64,000 bases of DNA from an uncultured Spirochaetota bacterium (GTDB taxonomy: Bacteria; Spirochaetota; Spirochaetia; SZUA-6; Fen-1364): contig CAVUXE010000099.1 of the NCBI GenBank assembly GCA_963745235.1, forward strand, positions 96,001 to 160,000, in the 5' to 3' direction. The notes below the pieces were generated by a model, which saw only the letters and a program-made list of their open reading frames with translations, ran no database searches and was not told where the DNA came from. Position 1 is the stretch's first letter. Every line of letters begins with the position of its first letter. A program made the position numbers and the translations under genes. Positions 37,325-45,985 of the stretch are shown here, piece after piece.

Positions 37325-39237
37325 GTGCCGGACAGGAAAAACTACGAGCAGCTTTTCGAGGAAGCGGTCGAGGCGGGGCGGAATCGCGACTATGCGAAGT
37401 CCGTGGAGATCCTTCTTCGGATTGTAGGAAGCACGGACAGGTTCCCTCAAGCGCTGCTCTACCTGGGCCGCAGCTATCATGCCCTGGGAGAGCATGCCCG
37501 CGCGGTCCAGTCCCTGAACTTCTACGTGCAGCAAAGGCCGTCGTCATCCGCGGGGCACTTCTTTCTCGGACGCGCATACATCGGCCTGGAAGCTTTCCCG
37601 TCCGCCATCCGGCACCTTCGCCGCGCCACTGAGCTGAATCCGAAGTTTGCCGCTGCTTTTGGCCTCCTGGGATTCGCGTGGCTGAAAGCCCGCAGGTCCG
37701 AGAAGGCAATCTGGTGCTTCGCGAAGGCGCTGGAGCTTGATCCGAACAATACCCGCCTCCAGGTGGGCTACCTGAACACGGCTCTCGTCCTTGCCATACG
37801 CCTGTTCTACCGGGGTCAGCTTCTGGATTCCGCGAGGCTCTTCAGCGAAGTCCTCGAGCAGCGGCAATCCAGCATCCTCCCCCACCTGTACCTGGCATCG
37901 ATCTACAAGGAGCTGGGAAAAAACAACGCTTCCCTGTACCACATAGACGCGGCCTCGCAGATGTCTCCCGAGGACCCTTTCCTTCATCTCCAGAAGGCGC
38001 TGGTCCTGCTCTCGCAGGACCAGAAAAAGGAGGCCGCGGAGGAGTTGCGCATTGGAACGCAGCTCCTGAAGAGCGCGGTCAGCCCGGAAGGCAACACGAA
38101 GGATGTCCTTCGATTCATCACGGTCAACCTGTTTCGTGAAAAGCGCTACCGGGAGACGATCCTCTACGGAACGCGGCTGCTCAAGGACGACTACGGGGAC
38201 CCTCACCTGCACATGCTCGTCGGTGAGTCCTACCGCAACCTGGGGGACCTGACCAAGGCGAAGAACCACTTTTTGCGCGCCTTGGAGAAGGACAAGGGCT
38301 CTCTCGAGATTCGTTACGGCCTGTTCGCCGTGCTGTGGGACCGCGGCGAGTTCCTGGAGCTCTTGAAGGAAACGGGGCACCTTCTCCAGAAGGATCCCGC
38401 GGATGAGACTGCCCGGTATTTCCACAGCCTCGCCCTCGCCCGCAGCGACGCCGCCCTGGAGCAGGTGCTCGGGGAGCTGCAGCAGCAGGTGCGGGCGCGT
38501 GGGCCGGAGCTCGCCCTCATGGCGGAGCTTGCCGCCGCGTACGTGCGGGCCGGGCTTCCCGAGCTTGCGGAGGGCTGGTACAAGCGCGTCCTTCGGATCT
38601 CCGAGGACGACATGGACGCGCTGCAGGCGCTGGCGGAGATCTACGAGGACATGGGCAAGGCGGAGCTGCAGCGCGACGCCCTCCTCCGCTACCTCATCCT
38701 GGATCCCGACGACAGGCGGCGCGCCGTCAGCTCGTGCGGCTCCTGCTGCGCATGCAGTCCTTCGCGGACGCGGCAGAGCACATTGCGAAGCTCCTTCCCC
38801 TCGAGCCGCGGAATGCAAGGCTGAAATCCACGCTGGCCCTCTGCTACCGGAGGTCCGGGAGGTATGCCGAAGCGCTTGTCATCCTCCGTGACCTGCTCAG
38901 CACGGACCACGACTCCGAAGACCTCATCAAGGCGGCAGTATACTGCCTGGACAAGATCGGGGCGCGGAAGGTCGGCATCAAGGCAATGGAGAGCTTCATG
39001 AAGGAGAACGGCGAGAGCCTTTCCCTCCTGCTCATGCTTGGCGTTCTCCACTACCAGGAGAACACCCTGGAGAAGTCCGCGGAGCTGTTCCGACGAGCTG
39101 TCTCGGTCTCCCCGAAGAGCTGGCGGGCAAACCGCAACCTGGGAATGGTGTATCGCCGGATGGGCAACACGGAGTACGCGGATAAGTTTCTTGCCAAGGC
39201 GGCTTCCCTTCGAAAGGCCGAGGCGGCGGCGCAGTAG
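37325..39237 (+). CDS. Large TPR protein, indel near 38720
   Basis: Many TPRs across ORFs 37325-38824 and 38734-39237; upstream TGC-TATACT extended -10. Confidence 0.82.
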
Positions 39238-39301
39238 CGCGTTGCAAGGCGCCGAAAAGCGTATATACTAGCCATGGAGAACGTTGCGAAGGGAGGATGA
39301 G

Positions 39302-39862
39302 ATGGCCGAGCAGAAGGCCGTGGACCTTTTCAAGGCGTACGCGGAGGGCAAGCTGCCGAGCGACGGAGGGTACATCGTTTCTTCCTTTCTCGATGAGCAC
39401 TCGGCGTATTCCCGCTACGAGGTTATCGCTTACAACGGGGTGAAAAGCATCGTCCTCACGAATGAGGGACTGACCTTTCAGACGGACGGGAACAAGATCT
39501 TCGTCCTTGCCGAGCCGCCGAACTACGCGCAGAAGCACCTCGAACCGTTCCGCAGGACGGCGAAGGATCAGATCCCGCACCGTTTTTCCGAGCTGGACAT
39601 CCTCACGACGAAGAACCAGACCAAGGTCATGGTGAGCAAGAGCCCCCATCATGACGTACGGCTCCTTCACCATCATCAAGCCCGACGGGAGAGAACGTCG
39701 CATTCCTCTTCTACAACCTGCCGGACGTCCTTGAAACCATCGGGAAGTTCTTCTCCACGGCCCTGAACAAGGAGGCCACGGTGGCGAAGGTTGACGCGGA
39801 AAAGGCAGGGGCGCTCGTGGTCGAGGGGCTCAGACAAGTTCACGATCTGGGGAAAGAAATAG
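39302..39862 (+). CDS. Spirochaete conserved hypothetical protein, three +1 indels (~39645, ~39683, ~39836)
   Basis: SD GGAGGA. Corrected reading: MAEQKAVDLF..SKSPIMTYGSFTIIKPTGENVAFLFYNLPD..GLRKFTIWGKK*. Confidence 0.72.
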
Positions 39863-39966
39863 AGCAACCGGCGGGCCGTTCGGGAGCCTTTGCGGACGGG
39901 CATGAAAAACGGCCGAGCGTCAGCCCCGGCCTGTTCTATTTCGGCTCGGCATCGCCTCTGGGCCGC

Positions 39967-42611
39967 CTACTTCCCGTTTCTCTCGATATTCAGCTGCGCG
40001 ATTGCCAGCTTGGAGAGGGGCACCTGGTAGGGCGAGCAGGAAACGTAGTCCAGTCCGGCCTCCATGCAGAACCTGATGTTCTCCGGGATGGCCCCATGCT
40101 CTCCGCAGAGCCCGACCTCCAGGTCCGGCCGCGTCATCTTGCCGCGCTTGACCGCCGTCGCAATCAGCTCCTTCACCTGCGGATTGAGGAGCTGGAAAGG
40201 GTTGCCTTCCAGAAGGTCGAACTGCGTGTAGTCAGGCATGAAGGAGTTGAAGTCGTCCCGCGAGAGTCCGATGGTCGTCTGGGTCAGGTCGTTCGTCCCG
40301 AAGGAGAAGAACTGCGCGTAATGCGCAAGATCTCCCGCCCCAAGAGCCGCGGCGGGCAACTCCACCATGGTGCCGATCTTGTAGGGAACGGTCCGTGCCT
40401 TGAAGCTTTCCCGCACTTCCCGCTCCACGTCCACGAGGCCGCGGATGTGCTTGCCCTCGATCTTCTTGCCGTAGATGATGAGCTTCAGCTCGCTCTCGTT
40501 CATGATGATGGGAATCATGATCTCAGGATCGACCTTGACTCCTTCCTTGCGGAGAGTGTAGACGGCCTCGAAGATCGCGCGCACCTGCATCTCGTAGATC
40601 TCCGGATATGACACCGCGATACGGCAACCCCGGTGCCCCAGCATCGGGTTGAACTCGTGCAGCGCCTCGCTTCGCGCGCGGACTTCCTTCTCCGAAACCC
40701 GATTGGCCCCGGTTTTCCCGGCGTTGAGGTAGTGCATGAACTTGTCGAGCTCCTGATCGTTGTGAGGCAGGAACTCGTGCAACGGGGCATCGAGCAGCCG
40801 GATGATGACCGGGTAGTCCTCCATGATCTTGAACAGCTTGTAAAAGTCCGTTTTCTGCATGGGCAGGAGCTTTGCCAGGGCCTTCCTGCGGTCCTCCACC
40901 GAGTCGGAAAGGACCATCTCTCGGAACACGTTGATCCGCTTCTCCTCGAAGAACATGTGCTCCGTGCGCACCAGCCCGATTCCATGCGCTCCGAACTTTC
41001 GGGCAAGCGCCGCGTCCCGGGGCTTGTCGGAGTTGGCCCGGACGGTGAAGTGGCCAACGAACTTGTCCACGAGCTTCAGGAAGTCAAGCATGCCCGGATT
41101 CCTCGGGGTCCGGCTCGATCAGCTCCGCCTTCCCCAGGTAGAGGGACGGCGCGCCGTAGAAGGGAACGTTGAGAGTGATGTAGTCCCCCTCCTTGATGGT
41201 ATGGCTGCCGATGGTCGCGCTGGTGTCCCTTGATCTTCATTTCCGGCTTCACCAGGGAAACCTTTCCGTACTGCCGGGCGACAACCGAGGCGTGCGCGGA
41301 GTATCCGCCCTCAGAGGAGAGCACTCCCGTGGCCACCTCAATGGCTTTCACGTCCTCCGCAAATGACGCCGGGAGACACAGGATCATCTTGGTGTCCGTG
41401 CCCTTCTGCTGCGCAAGCTTGTGCGCATCCAGGAGCCTTTCCGTGTTGAAGTAGATTCTTCCGATGGCGGCGCCCGGCGCCCCGTGATTCCGCCCGTGAG
41501 GGCGGTCAGCCCCTTCACCGAGGTGTAGTCGATGATGGGGTGGAGGATCTCGTTGAGCTGCCCCGGCTTGATCTTCTTCACGACGTACGCATCATCCACG
41601 ATCTTCCGCCCGTGCAGGTCCAGGAGGAGCCGAATGTCCGCCTGCGTGGACTTTGCCATCACGGATCTCTGGTCGATCAGCCACAGGCGCTTGTTTTCCA
41701 CGGTGAACCGTATGGAACGGGTCTCCTTGAAGTGGTCTTCCACCTTGCGGGCGATCTTCTCCAGCTCATCATGGTAGTTCTTGGCAACCTTGGAGATGTC
41801 CGCTCCGCTGGCGCCAATGGCGTTGAACTTGTTCTGGAAGTATTCCCCCTGGATCTCCTTGTTCCCGGTGACGATGTTGCGCGTAAAGAACTGGCCGTAG
41901 AATGCGTCCTTGCCGTAGTTGCCGTACACCATGGGCTGGATGATCAGCGCGGTGTCCTGCTGGTTCTGATCGTTGATGGCCAGGAGGTGGCTGATCCTCT
42001 TCAGGGCGATCTCCAGCTGGTCGAACGGGTCCTTGAAGAAACCCGGCGGGAAGCATGGCTTTGTAGCGCTCGAGGAACTCCTTGCGCTTTTTGGCGTCCA
42101 TGTCCGAGTCCAGACCCTTGCCGAGGTCCTTGATGGCCTGCTTGATTGTCTTGACGTCTTTCTCTTTCTCCTCCAGCTCGGCGATGGCCAGCTCGATCTC
42201 CAGGTTCCCCATGGTCAGGAACTGCTGCTCGTGCCAGCCGAAGTTCTCCCCCACGTAGCGAACGAACCCGGGAAGCGTCTTGTCGGTCAGGCCGAAATTG
42301 TGCAGCGTGGGATACTGGGCAATCACGAGGTTGGGGCTGATGACGATCTTCACCAGCATCGGGTTGTCGGCGTCTCCGAACGTCTTTCCCGTGAGCTTCG
42401 CCAGCTTGTCGAACCAGGGCCGCAGCGCGGCCCAGATATCGAAATCCTCCAGGTGCATGGCCACATCCGCATCGATGAGGAAACCGGGGAGGATGGGCAG
42501 GTCCAGGTCAGCCAGCTCCATGGCCAGCCGTCCGCGGATCCCGATACGATCCAGGATCTGCGGCTTCAGGTTTGCTTCCCCTTTTGCAAAGAAGTGGATG
42601 TTCTTCTTCAT
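39967..42611 (-). CDS. Pyruvate phosphate dikinase-like PEP-utilising enzyme with degenerate nucleotide-binding domain; indels near 42040, 41480, 41227, 41092
   Basis: PPDK architecture: QPMVYGN, His domain EGGYSAHASVVAR, PEP domain GIGLVRTEHMFF, IRLLD.PLHEF, NPMLGHRGCR, FSFGTNDLTQ and GLCGEHG. Confidence 0.88.
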
Positions 42612-42631
42612 GCTTCAACCTTCCCTTGTGG

Positions 42632-43714
42632 CTAGAACAGGTTCAGGACAGCGCCGACCTGTCCCTTGAGGAATGCTTCGAACATGTGGCTGGCGCCCTG
42701 CTTGAGGTAGCGCTGGAGCTTGGCCACGTCCTTGATGTCGTCCCCCGCAATGGCGATCATGATTGCGCTTCCGTGCTTGACCTTCCCCCATTTGAAAAGC
42801 GTGTTGATGTCGTGGATGCGCTCACCCTCGTAGAAGACGTAGACGTCCAGGCCCGGGTACTTGGTCGTGTAACTCTGGATGATCTTCTTCCACGCCTCGA
42901 CGTTTCCGTTATGGAAAAGCTCGTTCGTCACGGGGATGGAGTACATGGGTGTCATCCGTTTGGGAGCCGTGGTAGCGGCCGCAACGACGGGCCTGGCAGC
43001 CACCGGCGCCGCGGCGGCGGCGGTCTGTTGCGCAACGTAGGACTGGAGCGCCGGCGGCATGACGGGGGACGCTGCCGCGGCGGCGGCGGCCGCAAGGTCC
43101 ACCTTCGGTCTGCGCCCGCGCGGCTTCGGACCCCGAGTCGGTGCGGGGGCGGGAAGCATGGGAACCACTTTCTTCAGGGTGAAACTGCCCTTGGTGAATG
43201 CTGAAGGCGTCTTGATCTTCGACCCCTGGAGAATGGACAGGAGCAGGTTGATGCCTTCCTGATATTTCGGGTCACTGTCTGTATCCTGGAAAGCGCCGGC
43301 GAATATCGTTATCAGCTCATTTTTCTTGAGGCCACGGACGCTTTCCCAATGGGCGCGGTTTTTTGGATTGATGGTCATGACGCCCAGCTCTGGATGAAAA
43401 TAGGTCACCACGAGGTCCAGGGCCCGCCATTTTCCGACCTCCGCGGCAAGATAGTCAAAGTTTTCGAAGTTCTCCGTGAGATTGTAGGACCTGCATACGT
43501 AGCCGTACTTGTCCGCCAGGATGGCGCTTACGGCCGGCAGCACCTGGTCGGGCTCGATGGATTTCTCCACGAGGCACGCGCTGATGATCTCCGCCAGGTT
43601 TGTTTTTCTCTCGAAATCCGCAATGACCCGCATGATGAACTTGAAATGGGACAGTGAGCGGTTGAAGCCGGCCCTTGTGCTCAGCTCGTCAAACGCATGG
43701 AGTTGTTCTGCCAT
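42632..43714 (-). CDS. Conserved protein between cfpA and the PPDK-like gene, with a C-terminal HPr-like domain
   Basis: Intact 360-aa ORF with a Pro/Ala linker. Residues ~254-345 align by eye with HPr (VTNELFH; INTLFK; VKHGSAIMIAIAGDD). Confidence 0.75.
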   Translation of the reverse strand: MAEQLHAFDELSTRAGFNRSLSHFKFIMRVIADFERKTNLAEIISACLVEKSIEPDQVLPAVSAILADKYGYVCRSYNLTENFENFDYLAAEVGKWRALDLVVTYFHPELGVMTINPKNRAHWESVRGLKKNELITIFAGAFQDTDSDPKYQEGINLLLSILQGSKIKTPSAFTKGSFTLKKVVPMLPAPAPTRGPKPRGRRPKVDLAAAAAAAASPVMPPALQSYVAQQTAAAAAPVAARPVVAAATTAPKRMTPMYSIPVTNELFHNGNVEAWKKIIQSYTTKYPGLDVYVFYEGERIHDINTLFKWGKVKHGSAIMIAIAGDDIKDVAKLQRYLKQGASHMFEAFLKGQVGAVLNLF

Positions 43715-43813: not shown

Positions 43814-45832
43814 TCAGATCTCTCTCAGACCGACGTCCCCGCCCCTGCGCGGACGGCCCCTCCTGCCCGGCTTGCGGCCGCGCCGCGGAGCGACGTCCAC
43901 GACTCCCTGGGATGCCGTCTTGGCATCAGGTCCTGGAACGTTCAGCATATCAAGGTAGTCAGTCTTTTTGCCTTCACCTGCCGCTGCGGCAGTCTCCTCC
44001 GGCTGCGCCGCGAAGGACTGCGCAATGTCAGCGCGCACCGTGGAGCGCCTGCGGGAGAACGACGCGAATGCGGCGTCCTGGAACCCCTTGGATACGCCGT
44101 AGAGGAACTCGTTGAGCACGTTGGCCATGCCGTCCAGCGTCGCCTTCTTCCTCTTGATGGACGTGATGTTCACGTCGAGGAGCAGGCCCGGCTGGATGTG
44201 GTACGGGTTGATCATGTACTCGAACTTGAGGAAGTTGCCTTCCAGGAAAGCAAGCCGCTCCTCCAGGACTCTTCGCTGGATGGGATAACGGAAGCCGTAG
44301 AGCTTCTGCAGCTTGTCCTTCATCAGGATGAGGCGCTTCTTTACCTCGTCCTTCTCCGCGATGTAAGTCCTGTTCATCCGTTCGACGTCGGTATCACCGG
44401 CCCGCACGAACGTTACTTCGCTCCAGCTCTTCTCGATGTCCTCGTAGAGGGGATCCCCCGTCTTTGCCTTGATCCGCCTCTTGATCTTCCCGCGCATCTT
44501 CTTGGCAAGGTCGTTGAAGTCTACAACGCCCTTCAGGAACTTGGAGTCCTCATACACCATTTCGAGGATGTCCCATGCATGCTGCATTTCCACCTCGAAG
44601 CTCTTGGCCTGCACGTCGTACGACTTGCGCTCTTCCAGGAGCTGCGCCTGGTCGTAGTATTTCAGGCGGATTGCGTAGCGCTCATCAGGCAGGTGAGCTT
44701 CATCCGTGTCCTCATACTCGCGAAGGACCAGCTCGCGCGCGTTCTTGAGGTTTTCAACGTGCTGGTAGCCCATCTTGGAGGTGTCCAGGATGGAGGTGAT
44801 GGAGTTGATGGCAGTGTTGAACCCGCGGTTCCTGATGTTCTCCAGGTCGACGATTCGCTTCAGGTTCTCACGGATATTCACCGCGTCATACTCTTCCGGG
44901 TCGATCTCCGCGCGCAGGCCCTCGATCTTGTCCATGAGGCTCTTGGCAAAGTATGAGTACCTCTTGGACTTGGGGTCGTCCTTGTCGTCCGAGGTGAACT
45001 TCTCAACCCTCTTCATCTTCTCGAAGAGGATCTCTCCGTCGTTCAGCTCTTCCCGGCCCTCATCGATGACCTGATCCTTGAGCTTCTCGATCTCCTTGTC
45101 GATGAGGTCCATGATGTTCTTGGAGATGAGGTCCTTGATCAGGAACTCCACCGTGACCTGGTAGTGGAAGATGGGGCTGATGAGCTCCGAGTCCAGGATG
45201 TTGACCGAGAGCTTCACGTCCGTGACGGTCTTGGGCTTGTAGGCGCTGTCCTTGAAGGAGCACTTCACGATGGAGTACGCGTTCTCACCGCTGATGAACG
45301 CGCCGACATCCGTCTTCTGGCGCAGCAGGGAGTTGGTGAGGTTCTCCAGGTCGTTGACGCCGCGCTGGATGTGGCCCTGCAGGTGTCCGTACATGTTGAC
45401 GATGGATTTCTCGATCTCACCCGTGTTGAACTTGTCGATGCCGCCGATCTGGTCCAGCATGGCCGCGATCTCCTTCGGGGTGTAGCGGGCGAGGGACTTC
45501 ATCTCTTCCTTGTCGATGAAGTTCCTCACCTTCTTCACCATCTCGTCTTCCGAGGTGACCATGAAGCGGTTGAACATGTTCTGATAGTTCTGGTTGAAGT
45601 AGTTGTAGAGCTTCTCCTTGAAGCCACCCATGACGTCGAGCTTCTCGGTGACTTCCTTGGGCAGCTTGGAGGTGATATGATTCATCACCTTGTCGACTTC
45701 TTCGCTCATGAGCAGGTCGACTTCCGCCTGCTGATCCCGGAACTCCTGCGCGAGCGAGTTCCTGGAACCGACGGCGCTCGGCTTTTCCGGATGGAACACA
45801 TTCGGGCTTTTCGGAAGGTCAATAGCAGCCAT
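43814..45832 (-). CDS. cfpA: Cytoplasmic filament protein A
   Basis: N-terminus [25 protein letters not shown] and internal [22 protein letters not shown] and [21 protein letters not shown] match treponemal CfpA as recalled; 672 aa; SD AAGGAG. Confidence 0.93.
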
Positions 45833-45893: not shown

Positions 45894-45985
45894 GCACTTT
45901 TTTCCAGTGCCACCAATTTCTCTCTTCCATTTTATAGAATTATAGTGCATCCTACAAGCGATTTCAGGCAGGAACAGGAGGCAGC

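What the first reader, a model, noticed from the sequence alone, without database searches (positions are those of the whole stretch)
39967..42611. PPDK-like enzyme with a dead ATP-grasp domain but intact phospho-His and PEP sites
Compared with canonical PPDK (C. symbiosum numbering): GGKG(K22) reads GIRG; SVRSG(R92) reads KIVIS; NAQGEDVV reads NKFNAIG; D321-x-E323 (QDIEFT) reads RSIRFT; LQTR(Q335) reads IDQR. In contrast His455 (GGYSAH, with Ser for the regulatory Thr453) and R561, R617, E745, N768 and C831 (RTEHMFF, IRLLD, MVELP, GTNDL, GLCGEH) are all present. These motifs lie within in-frame segments, so the assembly indels do not explain the changes. Selective loss points to a new phospho-acceptor, and the old nucleotide domain may serve as a docking site.
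Basis: partly seen in the sequence, partly recalled or inferred. Interest (0 to 1): 0.7.

Follow-up and report, generated by a model that had tools for sequence, protein, structure and literature searches.

The report
Rewired PPDK paralogue beside spirochaete cfpA
This gene is a spirochaete-wide copy of the enzyme pyruvate phosphate dikinase that keeps its PEP and phospho-histidine machinery but has a rebuilt nucleotide site, always sits next to a small HPr-like protein and usually the cytoplasmic-filament gene cfpA, and seems to be the only "PPDK" in a syphilis-type treponeme genome.

Summary
The gene at window 39967-42611 (- strand) is colinear with PPDK. His455 and the PEP-site residues are kept. 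R92, D321, E323, Q335 and the NAQGEDVV motif are replaced. The four frameshifts are assembly errors: public contigs and intact 877-883-aa orthologues restore the frame.

The changes define a conserved paralogue family, not a decaying domain. In 48 members K22 is R (44), S90 is K (45), R92 is V (42), Q320 is R (46), E323 is R/K (40) and Q335 is D/E (42). The N-domain is about as conserved as that of canonical PPDKs in the same genomes.

In a sample of 301 Spirochaetota genomes, 105 carry both this family and cfpA. At least 94 of the 106 genomes with the family also keep a canonical PPDK.

Best reading (0.45): a PEP-charged His phosphotransferase with a new acceptor, working in the CfpA module. 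Main rival (0.25): a divergent but working PPDK.

The parts
39967..42611 (-). PPDK-like gene. It is about 880 aa once four 1-nt assembly indels are allowed for (near 42038-42044, 41479-41484, 41225-41229 and 41093-41097).
   Evidence: ORFs, frames; colinear with maize and C. symbiosum PPDK, E 2e-150; TIGR01828 634-689 bits, cut-off 843; indels.
41576..42611 (-). Remodelled N-terminal domain derived from the ATP-grasp domain (about aa 1-345). Motifs: IGIRGR, NPMLVKIVISP, QPMVYGNYG, IRSIRFT, WLIDQR.
   Evidence: Pfam PPDK_N matches only a stretch of about 50 residues (19.5-28.7 bits, cut-off 27). The family-specific invariant set is listed.
41111..41503 (-). Swivel phospho-histidine domain (about aa 370-500). 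The catalytic His codon is at 41292-41294 (GGYSAH).
   Evidence: Pfam PEP-utilizers E 3e-07 and 6.6e-08. His is kept in 47/48 members. The T453 position is S in 26 and A in 20.
39967..41067 (-). PEP/pyruvate-binding TIM-barrel domain with RTEHMFF, IRLLD, ELP, GTNDL and CGEHG.
   Evidence: Pfam PEP-utilizers_C E 8.5e-71; PDB 1kbl E 1.3e-100; R561 44/48, R617 47/48, E745 48/48, N768 44/48, C831 45/48.
42632..43714 (-). The upstream gene, here called 'up1' (360 aa, TP0747-like). It ends 20 nt before the PPDK-like start. Layout: helical part 7-72, HPr-fold domain 72-166, disordered linker about 190-250, and a very conserved C-terminal domain 252-350 with invariant NELFH268NGNVEAW.
43814..45832 (-). 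cfpA, the cytoplasmic filament protein A gene, first gene of the cluster.
   Evidence: NCBIfam NF040882 1166 bits, cut-off 500. Found upstream in 86/100 loci; the 14 misses all have contig ends less than 1.5 kb upstream.
39911..39931 (-). Terminator-like hairpin (7 pairs, 6 G-C) followed by GTTTTTC, 36 nt after the stop codon.
   Evidence: This is a consensus match only; the number of such sites is not above that in shuffles.
45939..45967 (-). Sigma-70-like promoter match (CTGAAA-17-TATAAT) upstream of cfpA. No terminator-like site was found on the - strand between the three genes.
   Evidence: This is a consensus match only.

Best explanation
The gene is intact in nature and belongs to an old, spirochaete-wide paralogue family of PPDK. 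The PEP/pyruvate barrel and the swivel histidine are kept, so PEP very likely still phosphorylates His440 (His455 in C. symbiosum numbering) and releases pyruvate. The former ATP-grasp site has been rebuilt rather than lost: the Mg ligands and R92 are gone, the Gly-rich loop is one residue shorter, and a conserved cluster of Arg/Lys has replaced them. I therefore read the protein as a PEP-charged histidine phosphotransferase, like Enzyme I in logic, that no longer uses AMP/PPi as acceptor. It most likely passes or presents the phosphoryl group at the rebuilt N-domain to another partner. The best candidate is the co-operonic TP0747-like protein, which has an HPr-fold domain and a C-terminal domain with an invariant His. 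The pair would work in the CfpA cytoplasmic-filament module and couple PEP/pyruvate status to that structure.

Shown: the residue pattern, conservation, paralogy, synteny and co-occurrence, and the HPr-like fold in the model. Inferred: autophosphorylation by PEP, loss of the AMP/PPi reaction, the identity of the acceptor, and any link to filament function.
For: 1. The PEP site and His are kept in 44-48 of 48 members. R92, E323 and Q335 keep the canonical residue in 0 of 48, against 36-39 of 42 canonical PPDKs (numbering).
2. The family scores below the PPDK equivalog cut-off: 634-689 and 608-660 bits against 843.
3. The N-domain is under constraint: identity 0.627 against 0.683 for canonical N-domains in the same 14 genomes, and the family has its own invariant set.
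4. The family forms one clade (39 rows, SH-like support 100) apart from 29 canonical PPDKs.
5. It is not redundant with PPDK. At least 94 of 106 genomes with the paralogue also have a canonical PPDK above the cut-off, including this genome (C58, 942 bits).
6. Gene order is cfpA-up1-PPDK-like. In 301 Spirochaetota genomes 105 have both cfpA and the paralogue, 2 have cfpA only, and 1 has a clear paralogue without cfpA. They co-occur even where they are unlinked, in genus g45 and family f51.
8. In T. denticola, TDE0842 (cfpA), TDE0843 and TDE0844 ('PPDK, putative') are repressed together (PMC3914990 Table 5, passages).
Against: There is no biochemical evidence at all.

Basic residues remain at or beside the phosphate-binding positions (K22>R, S90>K two residues from R92, R337 kept in 34/48). 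A divergent nucleotide or PPi site is therefore not excluded. In rifampin phosphotransferase the Mg-ligand mutant E297A stays active (PMC4844700 passages), so loss of E323 alone proves little.

The HPr-like domain of up1 has no His at the His15 position, and its sequence shows no HPr signal (hhalign probability 1.7%; no Pfam hit in 45 members).

Genome G142 has this paralogue but neither canonical PPDK nor pyruvate kinase was found there. That fits the textbook view that this gene carries the PEP-to-pyruvate flux.

Co-occurrence counts come from related genomes, which are not independent.
Confidence: 0.45

Rival explanations
1. It is still a working PPDK (PEP + AMP + PPi <-> pyruvate + ATP + Pi) with a divergent nucleotide site. 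R26 would stand in for K22, K88 for R92, and D/E313 or other acidic residues would hold the metal.
For: It is colinear with PPDK over its full length (E 2e-150). Basic residues are kept or shifted. The N-domain is as conserved as a functional one. G142 (1.14 Mb) and G250 have only this paralogue, and in G142 no pyruvate kinase was found. The literature treats T. pallidum TP0746 as the PEP-to-pyruvate enzyme (PMC10013896 passages). RPH E297A remains active.
Against: At least 94 of 106 genomes keep a canonical PPDK beside it. There is a charge reversal at the Mg ligand (E323>R/K in 40/48). Q335, R92, Q277 and the NAQGEDVV motif are lost and the loop is shortened. It scores below the TIGR01828 cut-off. 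It co-occurs with cfpA. G142 has a GTP-type PEPCK (544 bits) and oxaloacetate decarboxylase beta (602 bits), an alternative PEP>OAA>pyruvate route.
Confidence: 0.25
2. It is a metabolic enzyme with a different small acceptor at the rebuilt, Mg-free basic pocket. Examples would be PEP + Pi -> pyruvate + PPi, another nucleotide, or a phosphorylated metabolite.
For: The PEP/His half is intact, and the N-domain pocket is conserved and strongly basic (R26, K88, R244, R298, R301, R315). It is kept in a 1.14-Mb genome. The link to PPi-dependent glycolysis in treponemes is recalled, not tested here.
Against: This reading does not explain the tight coupling to up1 and cfpA. No ligand could be inferred, because no model coordinates were available.
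Confidence: 0.12
3. It is a non-catalytic scaffold or regulator (pseudoenzyme) of the cytoplasmic filament that merely binds PEP/pyruvate or up1.
For: It co-occurs and is syntenic with cfpA. Four of 48 members (P0245, P0257, P0279, P0284) have also lost PEP-site motifs.
Against: The catalytic His (47/48), E745 (48/48), R617 (47/48) and C831 (45/48) are nearly invariant, and the His and PEP domains are more conserved than in canonical PPDKs (0.76 against 0.62-0.66).
Confidence: 0.08
4. The window's copy is a pseudogene that is decaying after duplication.
For: There are four frameshifts in 2.6 kb.
Against: All four are contradicted by public contigs of three studies and by three relatives. Single-base indels occur at about 1 per kb across the neighbourhood, and also split the canonical PPDK and PEPCK genes of this assembly. 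All 20 fetched orthologues have open frames of 877-883 aa.
Confidence: 0.03

Closest known systems
Canonical pyruvate, phosphate dikinase (C. symbiosum 1dik/1kbl, maize 1vbg; TIGR01828)
   Same: It has the same three-domain order and length and is colinear over residues 2-873. The swivel His and the whole PEP/pyruvate site are kept.
   Different: It scores below the equivalog cut-off. R92, D321, E323, Q335, Q277 and the Gly-rich loop are replaced by a different conserved set. It is a separate clade, coexists with a true PPDK in most genomes, and is tied to cfpA/up1.
PTS Enzyme I with HPr
   Same: PEP charges a His on a homologous swivel domain next to a homologous PEP barrel (TIGR01417 matches the C-terminal part). 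A gene with an HPr-fold domain lies beside it. This is the nearest analogy for how it may work.
   Different: There is no EIN helical HPr-binding subdomain; the N-terminus derives from an ATP-grasp domain. It scores 95-106 bits against a cut-off of 341.7. The HPr-like domain lacks His15 and has no sequence similarity to HPr. The genomes also encode an ordinary HPr.
VadK (Rv1127c) of Mycobacterium tuberculosis, a regulatory histidine kinase evolved from PPDK
   Same: It is a precedent that a PPDK paralogue can leave central metabolism and become an autophosphorylating regulator that binds other proteins (abstract of PMC13400623).
   Different: It is the opposite half. As I recall, and as the 534-position NF004531 model suggests, VadK keeps the nucleotide and His part and lacks the PEP barrel. 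Here the PEP barrel is kept and the nucleotide site is rebuilt. NF004531 scores 126-134 bits against a cut-off of 456.
Rifampin phosphotransferase (RPH)
   Same: It is another enzyme built from an ATP-grasp domain and a swivel His domain in which one substrate domain was exchanged for a new acceptor site (PMC4844700 passages).
   Different: RPH keeps a working ATP-grasp (K22 is essential) and replaces the PEP domain. Here the ATP-grasp site is the part that changed.

Membership tests
PPDK (TIGR01828 equivalog, EC 2.7.9.1) | Whole-protein score at or above the curated cut-off (843.45 bits) | tested here: not met
   Three orthologues score 634-689 bits. Five more genomes give 608-660 bits, while their canonical paralogues score 1276-1406.
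PPDK (TIGR01828 equivalog, EC 2.7.9.1) | Three-domain colinear architecture: N-terminal nucleotide domain, swivel His domain, PEP barrel | tested here: met
   Query residues 2-873 align to residues 3-874 of 1vbg, E 2.4e-150. The profile aligns to 1dik over 17-877 against 13-873.
PPDK (TIGR01828 equivalog, EC 2.7.9.1) | Catalytic His455 and PEP/pyruvate residues R561, R617, E745, N768, C831 | tested here: met
   H 47/48, R 44/48, R 47/48, E 48/48, N 44/48, C 45/48. All are present in the window's own translation.
PPDK (TIGR01828 equivalog, EC 2.7.9.1) | Nucleotide/Mg-site residues K22, R92, D321, E323, Q335, R337. Their roles are recalled from the C. symbiosum literature; only K22's role was seen in a passage. 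| tested here: not met
   K22 is R in 44/48. R92 is V in 42/48 (R in 0). D321 is S/Q/E/K. E323 is R/K in 40/48 (E in 0). Q335 is D/E in 42/48 (Q in 0). R337 is R/K in 34/48. Canonical rows keep them in 34-40 of 42.
PPDK (TIGR01828 equivalog, EC 2.7.9.1) | AMP/PPi-dependent interconversion of PEP and pyruvate | not testable with these tools
   This needs an enzyme assay.
Pfam PPDK_N (PF01326) | Domain match at the gathering score (27 bits) over the N-domain | tested here: inconclusive
   Scores are 19.5-28.7 bits on a stretch of about 50 residues (profile 259-317 of 328). Precomputed Pfam lists PF01326 for some members and not others.
PTS Enzyme I (TIGR01417) | Score above the cut-off (341.7 bits) and an N-terminal HPr-binding EIN domain | tested here: not met
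   It scores 95-106 bits, and only the C-terminal barrel matches.
HPr (PF00381), for the upstream protein up1 | HPr fold | tested here: met
HPr (PF00381), for the upstream protein up1 | Sequence membership and the phospho-acceptor His15 | tested here: not met
   There is no Pfam hit in 45 members. hhalign against the spirochaete HPr alignment gives probability 1.7%. The stretch facing His15 (about residues 80-87) is variable and has no His.
Pfam TP_0747_N (PF27497), for up1 | Match to the family model | tested here: inconclusive
   The model is not in the local Pfam copy. The three nearest Atlas clusters (scores 0.94-0.95) carry it in 94-98% of members. This is a lead, not an alignment.
CfpA (NF040882), for the gene at 43814-45832 | Score above the cut-off (500 bits) | tested here: met
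   1166 bits over positions 1-604 of 605.

The most novel reading that the evidence does not exclude
Spirochaetes with cytoplasmic filaments carry a previously unrecognised PEP:protein phosphorelay built on a PPDK scaffold. PEP charges the swivel His. The rebuilt, metal-free N-domain docks the TP0747-like protein (HPr-fold domain plus a C-terminal domain with an invariant His), and the signal controls the CfpA filament ribbon. As a corollary, the gene annotated as PPDK in T. pallidum-type genomes would not be a PPDK. PEP would then reach pyruvate through PEPCK and oxaloacetate decarboxylase.
Probability: 0.25. Interest if true: 0.85.

Novelty: new variant of a known kind. Interest (0 to 1): 0.72.

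Why it matters
Public sources name this family 'pyruvate, phosphate dikinase' or 'putative PEP-binding protein'. Papers on T. pallidum treat TP0746 as the enzyme that turns PEP into pyruvate and ATP. If the nucleotide half-reaction is gone, energy budgets for treponemes need revising. The function of CfpA filaments, open since the 1990s (recalled), would also gain two testable partners and a possible metabolic input (PEP). More generally it would be a second, mirror-image case, after VadK, of a PPDK turned into something else. All of this can be tested with one recombinant protein and [32P]PEP.

Tried and rejected
- **Complex prediction.** PPDK-like residues 1-510 with up1 gave score 0.00 and no verdict. 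This is evidence neither for nor against binding.
- **up1 against HPr by sequence.** Profile-profile comparison of up1 with a spirochaete HPr alignment gave probability 1.7%. A Pfam scan of all 45 up1 members at E up to 10 gave nothing consistent.
- **up1 profile against PDB sequences.** Only weak hits to the NusA N-terminal region appeared, E 0.013-0.022. I did not pursue them.
- **Full-length AlphaFold model of the PPDK-like protein.** Its pLDDT was 68.3 from 20 rows. I did not use it, and no coordinates were available to map the pocket.
- **Atlas search with the N-domain.** Uninformative.
- **Earlier scan notes.** No findings.
- **T. pallidum two-hybrid tables.** The tables of PMC2386257 are old .xls files that cannot be read here, and the one readable zip has no TP0746/0747/0748. 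They may bear on the binding claim.
- **RNA evidence.** Only two short contigs of one metatranscriptome run lie on the gene. This is too little to claim expression.
- **Pseudogene reading.** Rejected.
- **Literature searches.** None turned up a description of this family's altered site or of its link to cfpA. They covered cfpA + PPDK + Treponema, TP0746 (39), TDE0844 (40), PPDK + T. pallidum + pyruvate kinase (51), CfpA operon (52), PPDK + ATP-grasp (80) and TP0747/TDE0843 (84). The library lacks most subscription journals.
Full report
**What is in the window.** On the - strand between 39967 and 42611 the ORF list shows four consecutive pieces of one PPDK-like gene. A three-frame translation gives the frame path 0>1>0>1>2. 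The C-terminal piece is a strong PEP-utilizers_C domain (E 8.5e-71) and matches C. symbiosum PPDK at E 1.3e-100. The N-terminal 280-aa piece has no Pfam match, and the next piece matches PPDK_N only weakly (18 bits).

**The frame breaks are assembly errors.**
- Against three related genomes, the window has four private single-base indels in this gene: insertions near 42040, 41226 and 41096, and a deletion near 41480. It has similar ones in the neighbouring genes, roughly one per kb.
- Contigs of three public DNA runs (X1, X2, X4; pieces 90-99% alike) differ from the window by -1 at 41093, -1 at 41227, +C at 41479 and -1 at 42038. No other indel was listed.
- The canonical PPDK and a PEPCK gene elsewhere in this assembly are also split between frames.
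- All 20 fetched orthologues have open frames of 877-883 aa. The closest (L013) is 94% identical over the first 195 residues.
- I therefore used intact orthologues by reference and never joined the window's pieces.

**What the protein is by sequence.** The closest intact orthologue aligns over residues 2-873 with maize PPDK 3-874 (E 2.4e-150) and equally well with C. symbiosum PPDK. Against NCBIfam it hits the PPDK equivalog TIGR01828 with 634-689 bits, below the curated cut-off of 843.45. Pfam sees PEP-utilizers_C, the mobile His domain, and only a fragment of about 50 residues of PPDK_N.

**The site has been remodelled, not eroded.** A profile of 20 orthologues aligned to 1dik gives the residue map. 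I then counted residues in 48 family members and 42 canonical PPDKs.

| C. symbiosum position | Family members (n = 48) |
|---|---|
| K22 | R in 44 |
| S90 | K in 45 |
| R92 | V in 42, R in 0 |
| D104 | P in 39 |
| Q277 | F in 44 |
| Q320 | R in 46 |
| D321 | S 20, Q 6, E 6, K 6 |
| E323 | R 29, K 11, E in 0 |
| Q335 | D 31, E 11, Q in 0 |
| R337 | R 28, K 6 |
| T453 | S 26, A 20 |
| H455 | H in 47 |
| R561 / R617 / E745 / N768 / C831 | 44 / 47 / 48 / 44 / 45 |

The canonical rows keep the textbook residue in 28-42 of 42 at each of these positions. The roles of these residues in nucleotide and Mg binding are recalled from the C. symbiosum literature. Only K22's role was seen in a passage here (PMC4844700).

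**The N-domain is constrained.**
- The 20-sequence alignment has a mean column identity of 78% overall and 71% in the N-domain, with its own invariant set: IGxRG, LPIxPGF, NPMLxKxVxSP, HxxGL, QPMVYGNYG, ExRxxRF, LWxIxQ.
- In 14 genomes that hold both paralogues (91 pairs), mean identity of the rebuilt N-domain is 0.627 against 0.683 for the canonical N-domain. The medians are 0.594 and 0.591.
- The His and PEP domains are more conserved than in the canonical enzyme (0.761 and 0.764 against 0.618 and 0.663).
- A FastTree of 68 rows puts all 39 family rows on one side of a branch with SH-like support 100, apart from 29 canonical PPDKs. This was a quick method with midpoint rooting only.
- So 'dead' is the wrong word. 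The old catalytic set has been exchanged for a new, more basic set that lacks the canonical metal ligands.

**Distribution.**
- With the N-terminal piece as query, 40 of 41 related genomes match. Most have two hits: the orthologue (E down to 1e-123) and a weak hit to a second PPDK of about 890-1000 aa.
- A pattern scan of species genomes found 346 places encoding a relative. All 80 listed are Spirochaetota, including Breznakiella homolactica and Treponema spp..
- Sources name the proteins 'putative PEP-binding protein', 'pyruvate, phosphate dikinase' or 'PEP/pyruvate-binding domain-containing protein'.
- In the 50%-identity library the N-domain profile finds 69 clusters at E up to 1e-30. Four distant members (P0245, P0257, P0279, P0284) have also lost PEP-site motifs.

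**Neighbourhood.**
- The gene upstream on the same strand, 20 nt away, is a 360-aa protein without a family in the local libraries (window 42632-43714). I call it up1.
- The next gene (43814-45832) is cfpA (NF040882, 1166 bits against a cut-off of 500).
- In 100 fetched loci, which are 84 distinct places because 16 were fetched twice, tblastn finds up1 in 99, cfpA in 86, a small convergent gene in 66 and a TPR gene in 81.
- The 14 loci without cfpA all end less than 1.5 kb upstream of the gene.
- An ORF-based look finds up1 directly upstream in 108 of 116 loci. These include L121 (genome G051), where cfpA lies on another contig.
- A promoter-like match precedes cfpA and a terminator-like hairpin follows the PPDK-like stop, with none between the genes on that strand (consensus matches only).

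**Co-occurrence with cfpA.** This was counted in a sample of 301 Spirochaetota genomes.
- 114 genomes match the N-domain profile at E up to 1e-20. Seven of these are at the level of canonical PPDKs, and one (G069) was read and is canonical.
- 107 genomes have cfpA.
- 105 have both, 2 have cfpA only (G145, G318), and 1 has a clear paralogue without a cfpA match (G088).
- The two genes co-occur even where they lie on different contigs (genus g45, family f51).
- These genomes are related, so the counts overstate independence.

**Coexistence with canonical PPDK.** A canonical PPDK above the cut-off is present in 203 of 301 genomes. At least 94 of the 106 genomes with the paralogue have one. The exceptions are G142, G199, G250, G050, G057, G180, G188, G211, G215, G253 and G273, with G296 borderline.

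**The upstream protein up1.**
- An alignment of 45 members shows a moderately conserved N-terminal half, a disordered Ala/Pro/Lys-rich linker, and a C-terminal domain of about 105 aa. That domain has long invariant runs: VxNELFHNGNVEAW, LFKWGKVK, GASxxFExFL.
- The AlphaFold model (pLDDT 79.6; above 90 for residues 10-180) has three helices (7-72) followed by a beta-alpha-beta-beta-alpha-beta-alpha unit (72-166).
- Foldseek's top rows are likewise HPr chains (probability 0.87-0.99), but with weak E-values of 0.05-0.5.
- There is no His at the position facing His15. An invariant NPK (116-118) sits where the Ser46 loop of HPr would be (positional inference).
- Sequence methods see no HPr relationship. 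The same genomes have an ordinary 90-aa HPr.
- The protein atlas places up1 relatives in clusters that carry the recent Pfam family PF27497 'TP_0747_N'.

**Link to treponemes in the literature.**
- In T. denticola the order is TDE0842 cfpA, TDE0843 hypothetical, TDE0844 'pyruvate phosphate dikinase, putative'. All three are repressed together in co-culture (PMC3914990 Table 5, passages).
- In T. pallidum, TP0746 (Ppdk, 901 aa or 885 aa, reverse strand, SNVs at about 810.3-811.4 kb) lies close to TP0748 (CfpA, 678 aa, about 814.9 kb) (PMC3373638 and PMC10013896, passages).
- Handle G142 is a single contig of 1,139,633 bp. It has a 901-aa family member at about 810.7-813.4 kb on the - strand, up1 next to it, and a 678-aa cfpA at 814,710-816,533. 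I take it to be a T. pallidum-type genome; this is an inference.
- The G142 protein reads LGIRGR, LKVVLSP, IREVRFT and LIEQK, with intact His and PEP motifs.
- In G142 the family TIGR01828 finds only this gene (608 bits, below the cut-off) plus one hit to an Enzyme I-like gene of 113 bits. No pyruvate kinase is found.
- G142 does have a GTP-type PEPCK (544 bits) and the beta subunit of Na+-pumping oxaloacetate decarboxylase (602 bits). PEP can therefore in principle reach pyruvate without a PPDK.

**How it most likely works.**
- *Shown:* a conserved PEP barrel and swivel His; a rebuilt, conserved, basic N-domain site that lacks the canonical Mg ligands; non-redundancy with PPDK; obligatory pairing with a protein that contains an HPr-fold domain; phyletic coupling to cfpA.
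- *Inferred:* PEP phosphorylates the His. The His domain swivels to the rebuilt N-domain as in PPDK. There it meets a different acceptor or partner instead of AMP/PPi, most plausibly up1. The module serves the CfpA filament system.
- I put this at 0.45.
- The main rival is a divergent but working PPDK, at 0.25. The retained and shifted basic residues keep it alive, as do the fact that G142 has no other candidate enzyme of this kind and the finding that a Mg-ligand mutant of the related RPH stays active.
- A small-molecule acceptor such as Pi (0.12), a non-catalytic scaffold (0.08) and a pseudogene (0.03) follow.

**Comparison with what is known, and novelty.**
- The protein is a PEP-utilising enzyme of PPDK descent, but it fails the PPDK membership tests on score and on the nucleotide-site residues.
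- Its logic resembles Enzyme I with HPr, but it is not a member of that family either.
- VadK of M. tuberculosis (abstract only) is a precedent for a PPDK-derived regulator that keeps the other half of the enzyme.
- Seven literature searches found no description of this family's altered site or of its link to cfpA/TP0747. The library lacks most subscription journals, and the older cfpA papers could not be checked.
- I rate it a new variant of a known kind.

**Limits.**
- There is no biochemistry, and no model coordinates to inspect the pocket.
- The HPr-fold assignment rests on a predicted structure.
- The co-occurrence counts are not phylogenetically independent.
- The tree is a quick one.
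- The two-hybrid tables for T. pallidum could not be read.
- The complex prediction gave no verdict.

Noticed in passing
window 39284-39766 (+): A small gene converges on the PPDK-like gene. Only about the first 121 aa are real here, because two private 1-nt insertions near 39645 and 39683 extend the ORF. It is conserved at this position in 66 of 100 loci and has no Pfam or NCBIfam family.
   Followed up: partly
window 37325-39237 (+): A TPR-repeat protein is split by a 1-nt deletion near 38714. It is conserved downstream of the cluster in 81 of 100 loci.
   Followed up: partly
G000 contig C58:118725-121434 and C58:125290-126392: The canonical PPDK (942 bits) and a GTP-type PEPCK lie within 5 kb of each other. 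In this assembly the PPDK is split into two frames and the PEPCK into three, further signs of a high indel error rate.
   Followed up: no
G058, G072, G084, G096, G144, G159, G166, G194, G215 (e.g. L123): A subgroup of the family has open frames of 965-972 aa. In these the N-domain profile matches in two separate stretches, which suggests an insertion of about 90 aa inside the rebuilt N-domain.
   Followed up: no
proteins P0245, P0257, P0279, P0284: These distant family members keep the His motif but have also lost the PEP-site motifs (e.g. RTEHMFF and GTNDL are replaced). They may be fully non-catalytic derivatives.
   Followed up: no
G045 (contigs C97, C69, C102): One genome has three full-length cfpA matches (843-974 bits), only one of which is next to the PPDK-like gene.
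   Followed up: no
L147-L152, L161 (genus g1, G024 and G035 canonical PPDKs): The canonical PPDKs of the window's genus, of G024 and of G035 are 966-994 aa long. The G006 copy reads RFEH where RTEH is usual, and the window's own C58 copy reads RFEHMF. They are thus themselves slightly unusual, though above the equivalog cut-off.
   Followed up: no
window 39900-42700: Near-identical pieces of this gene (90-99% alike) occur in contigs of soil and peat metagenome runs X1, X2 and X4. Two short contigs of a peat metatranscriptome run, X13, also lie on it.
   Followed up: partly
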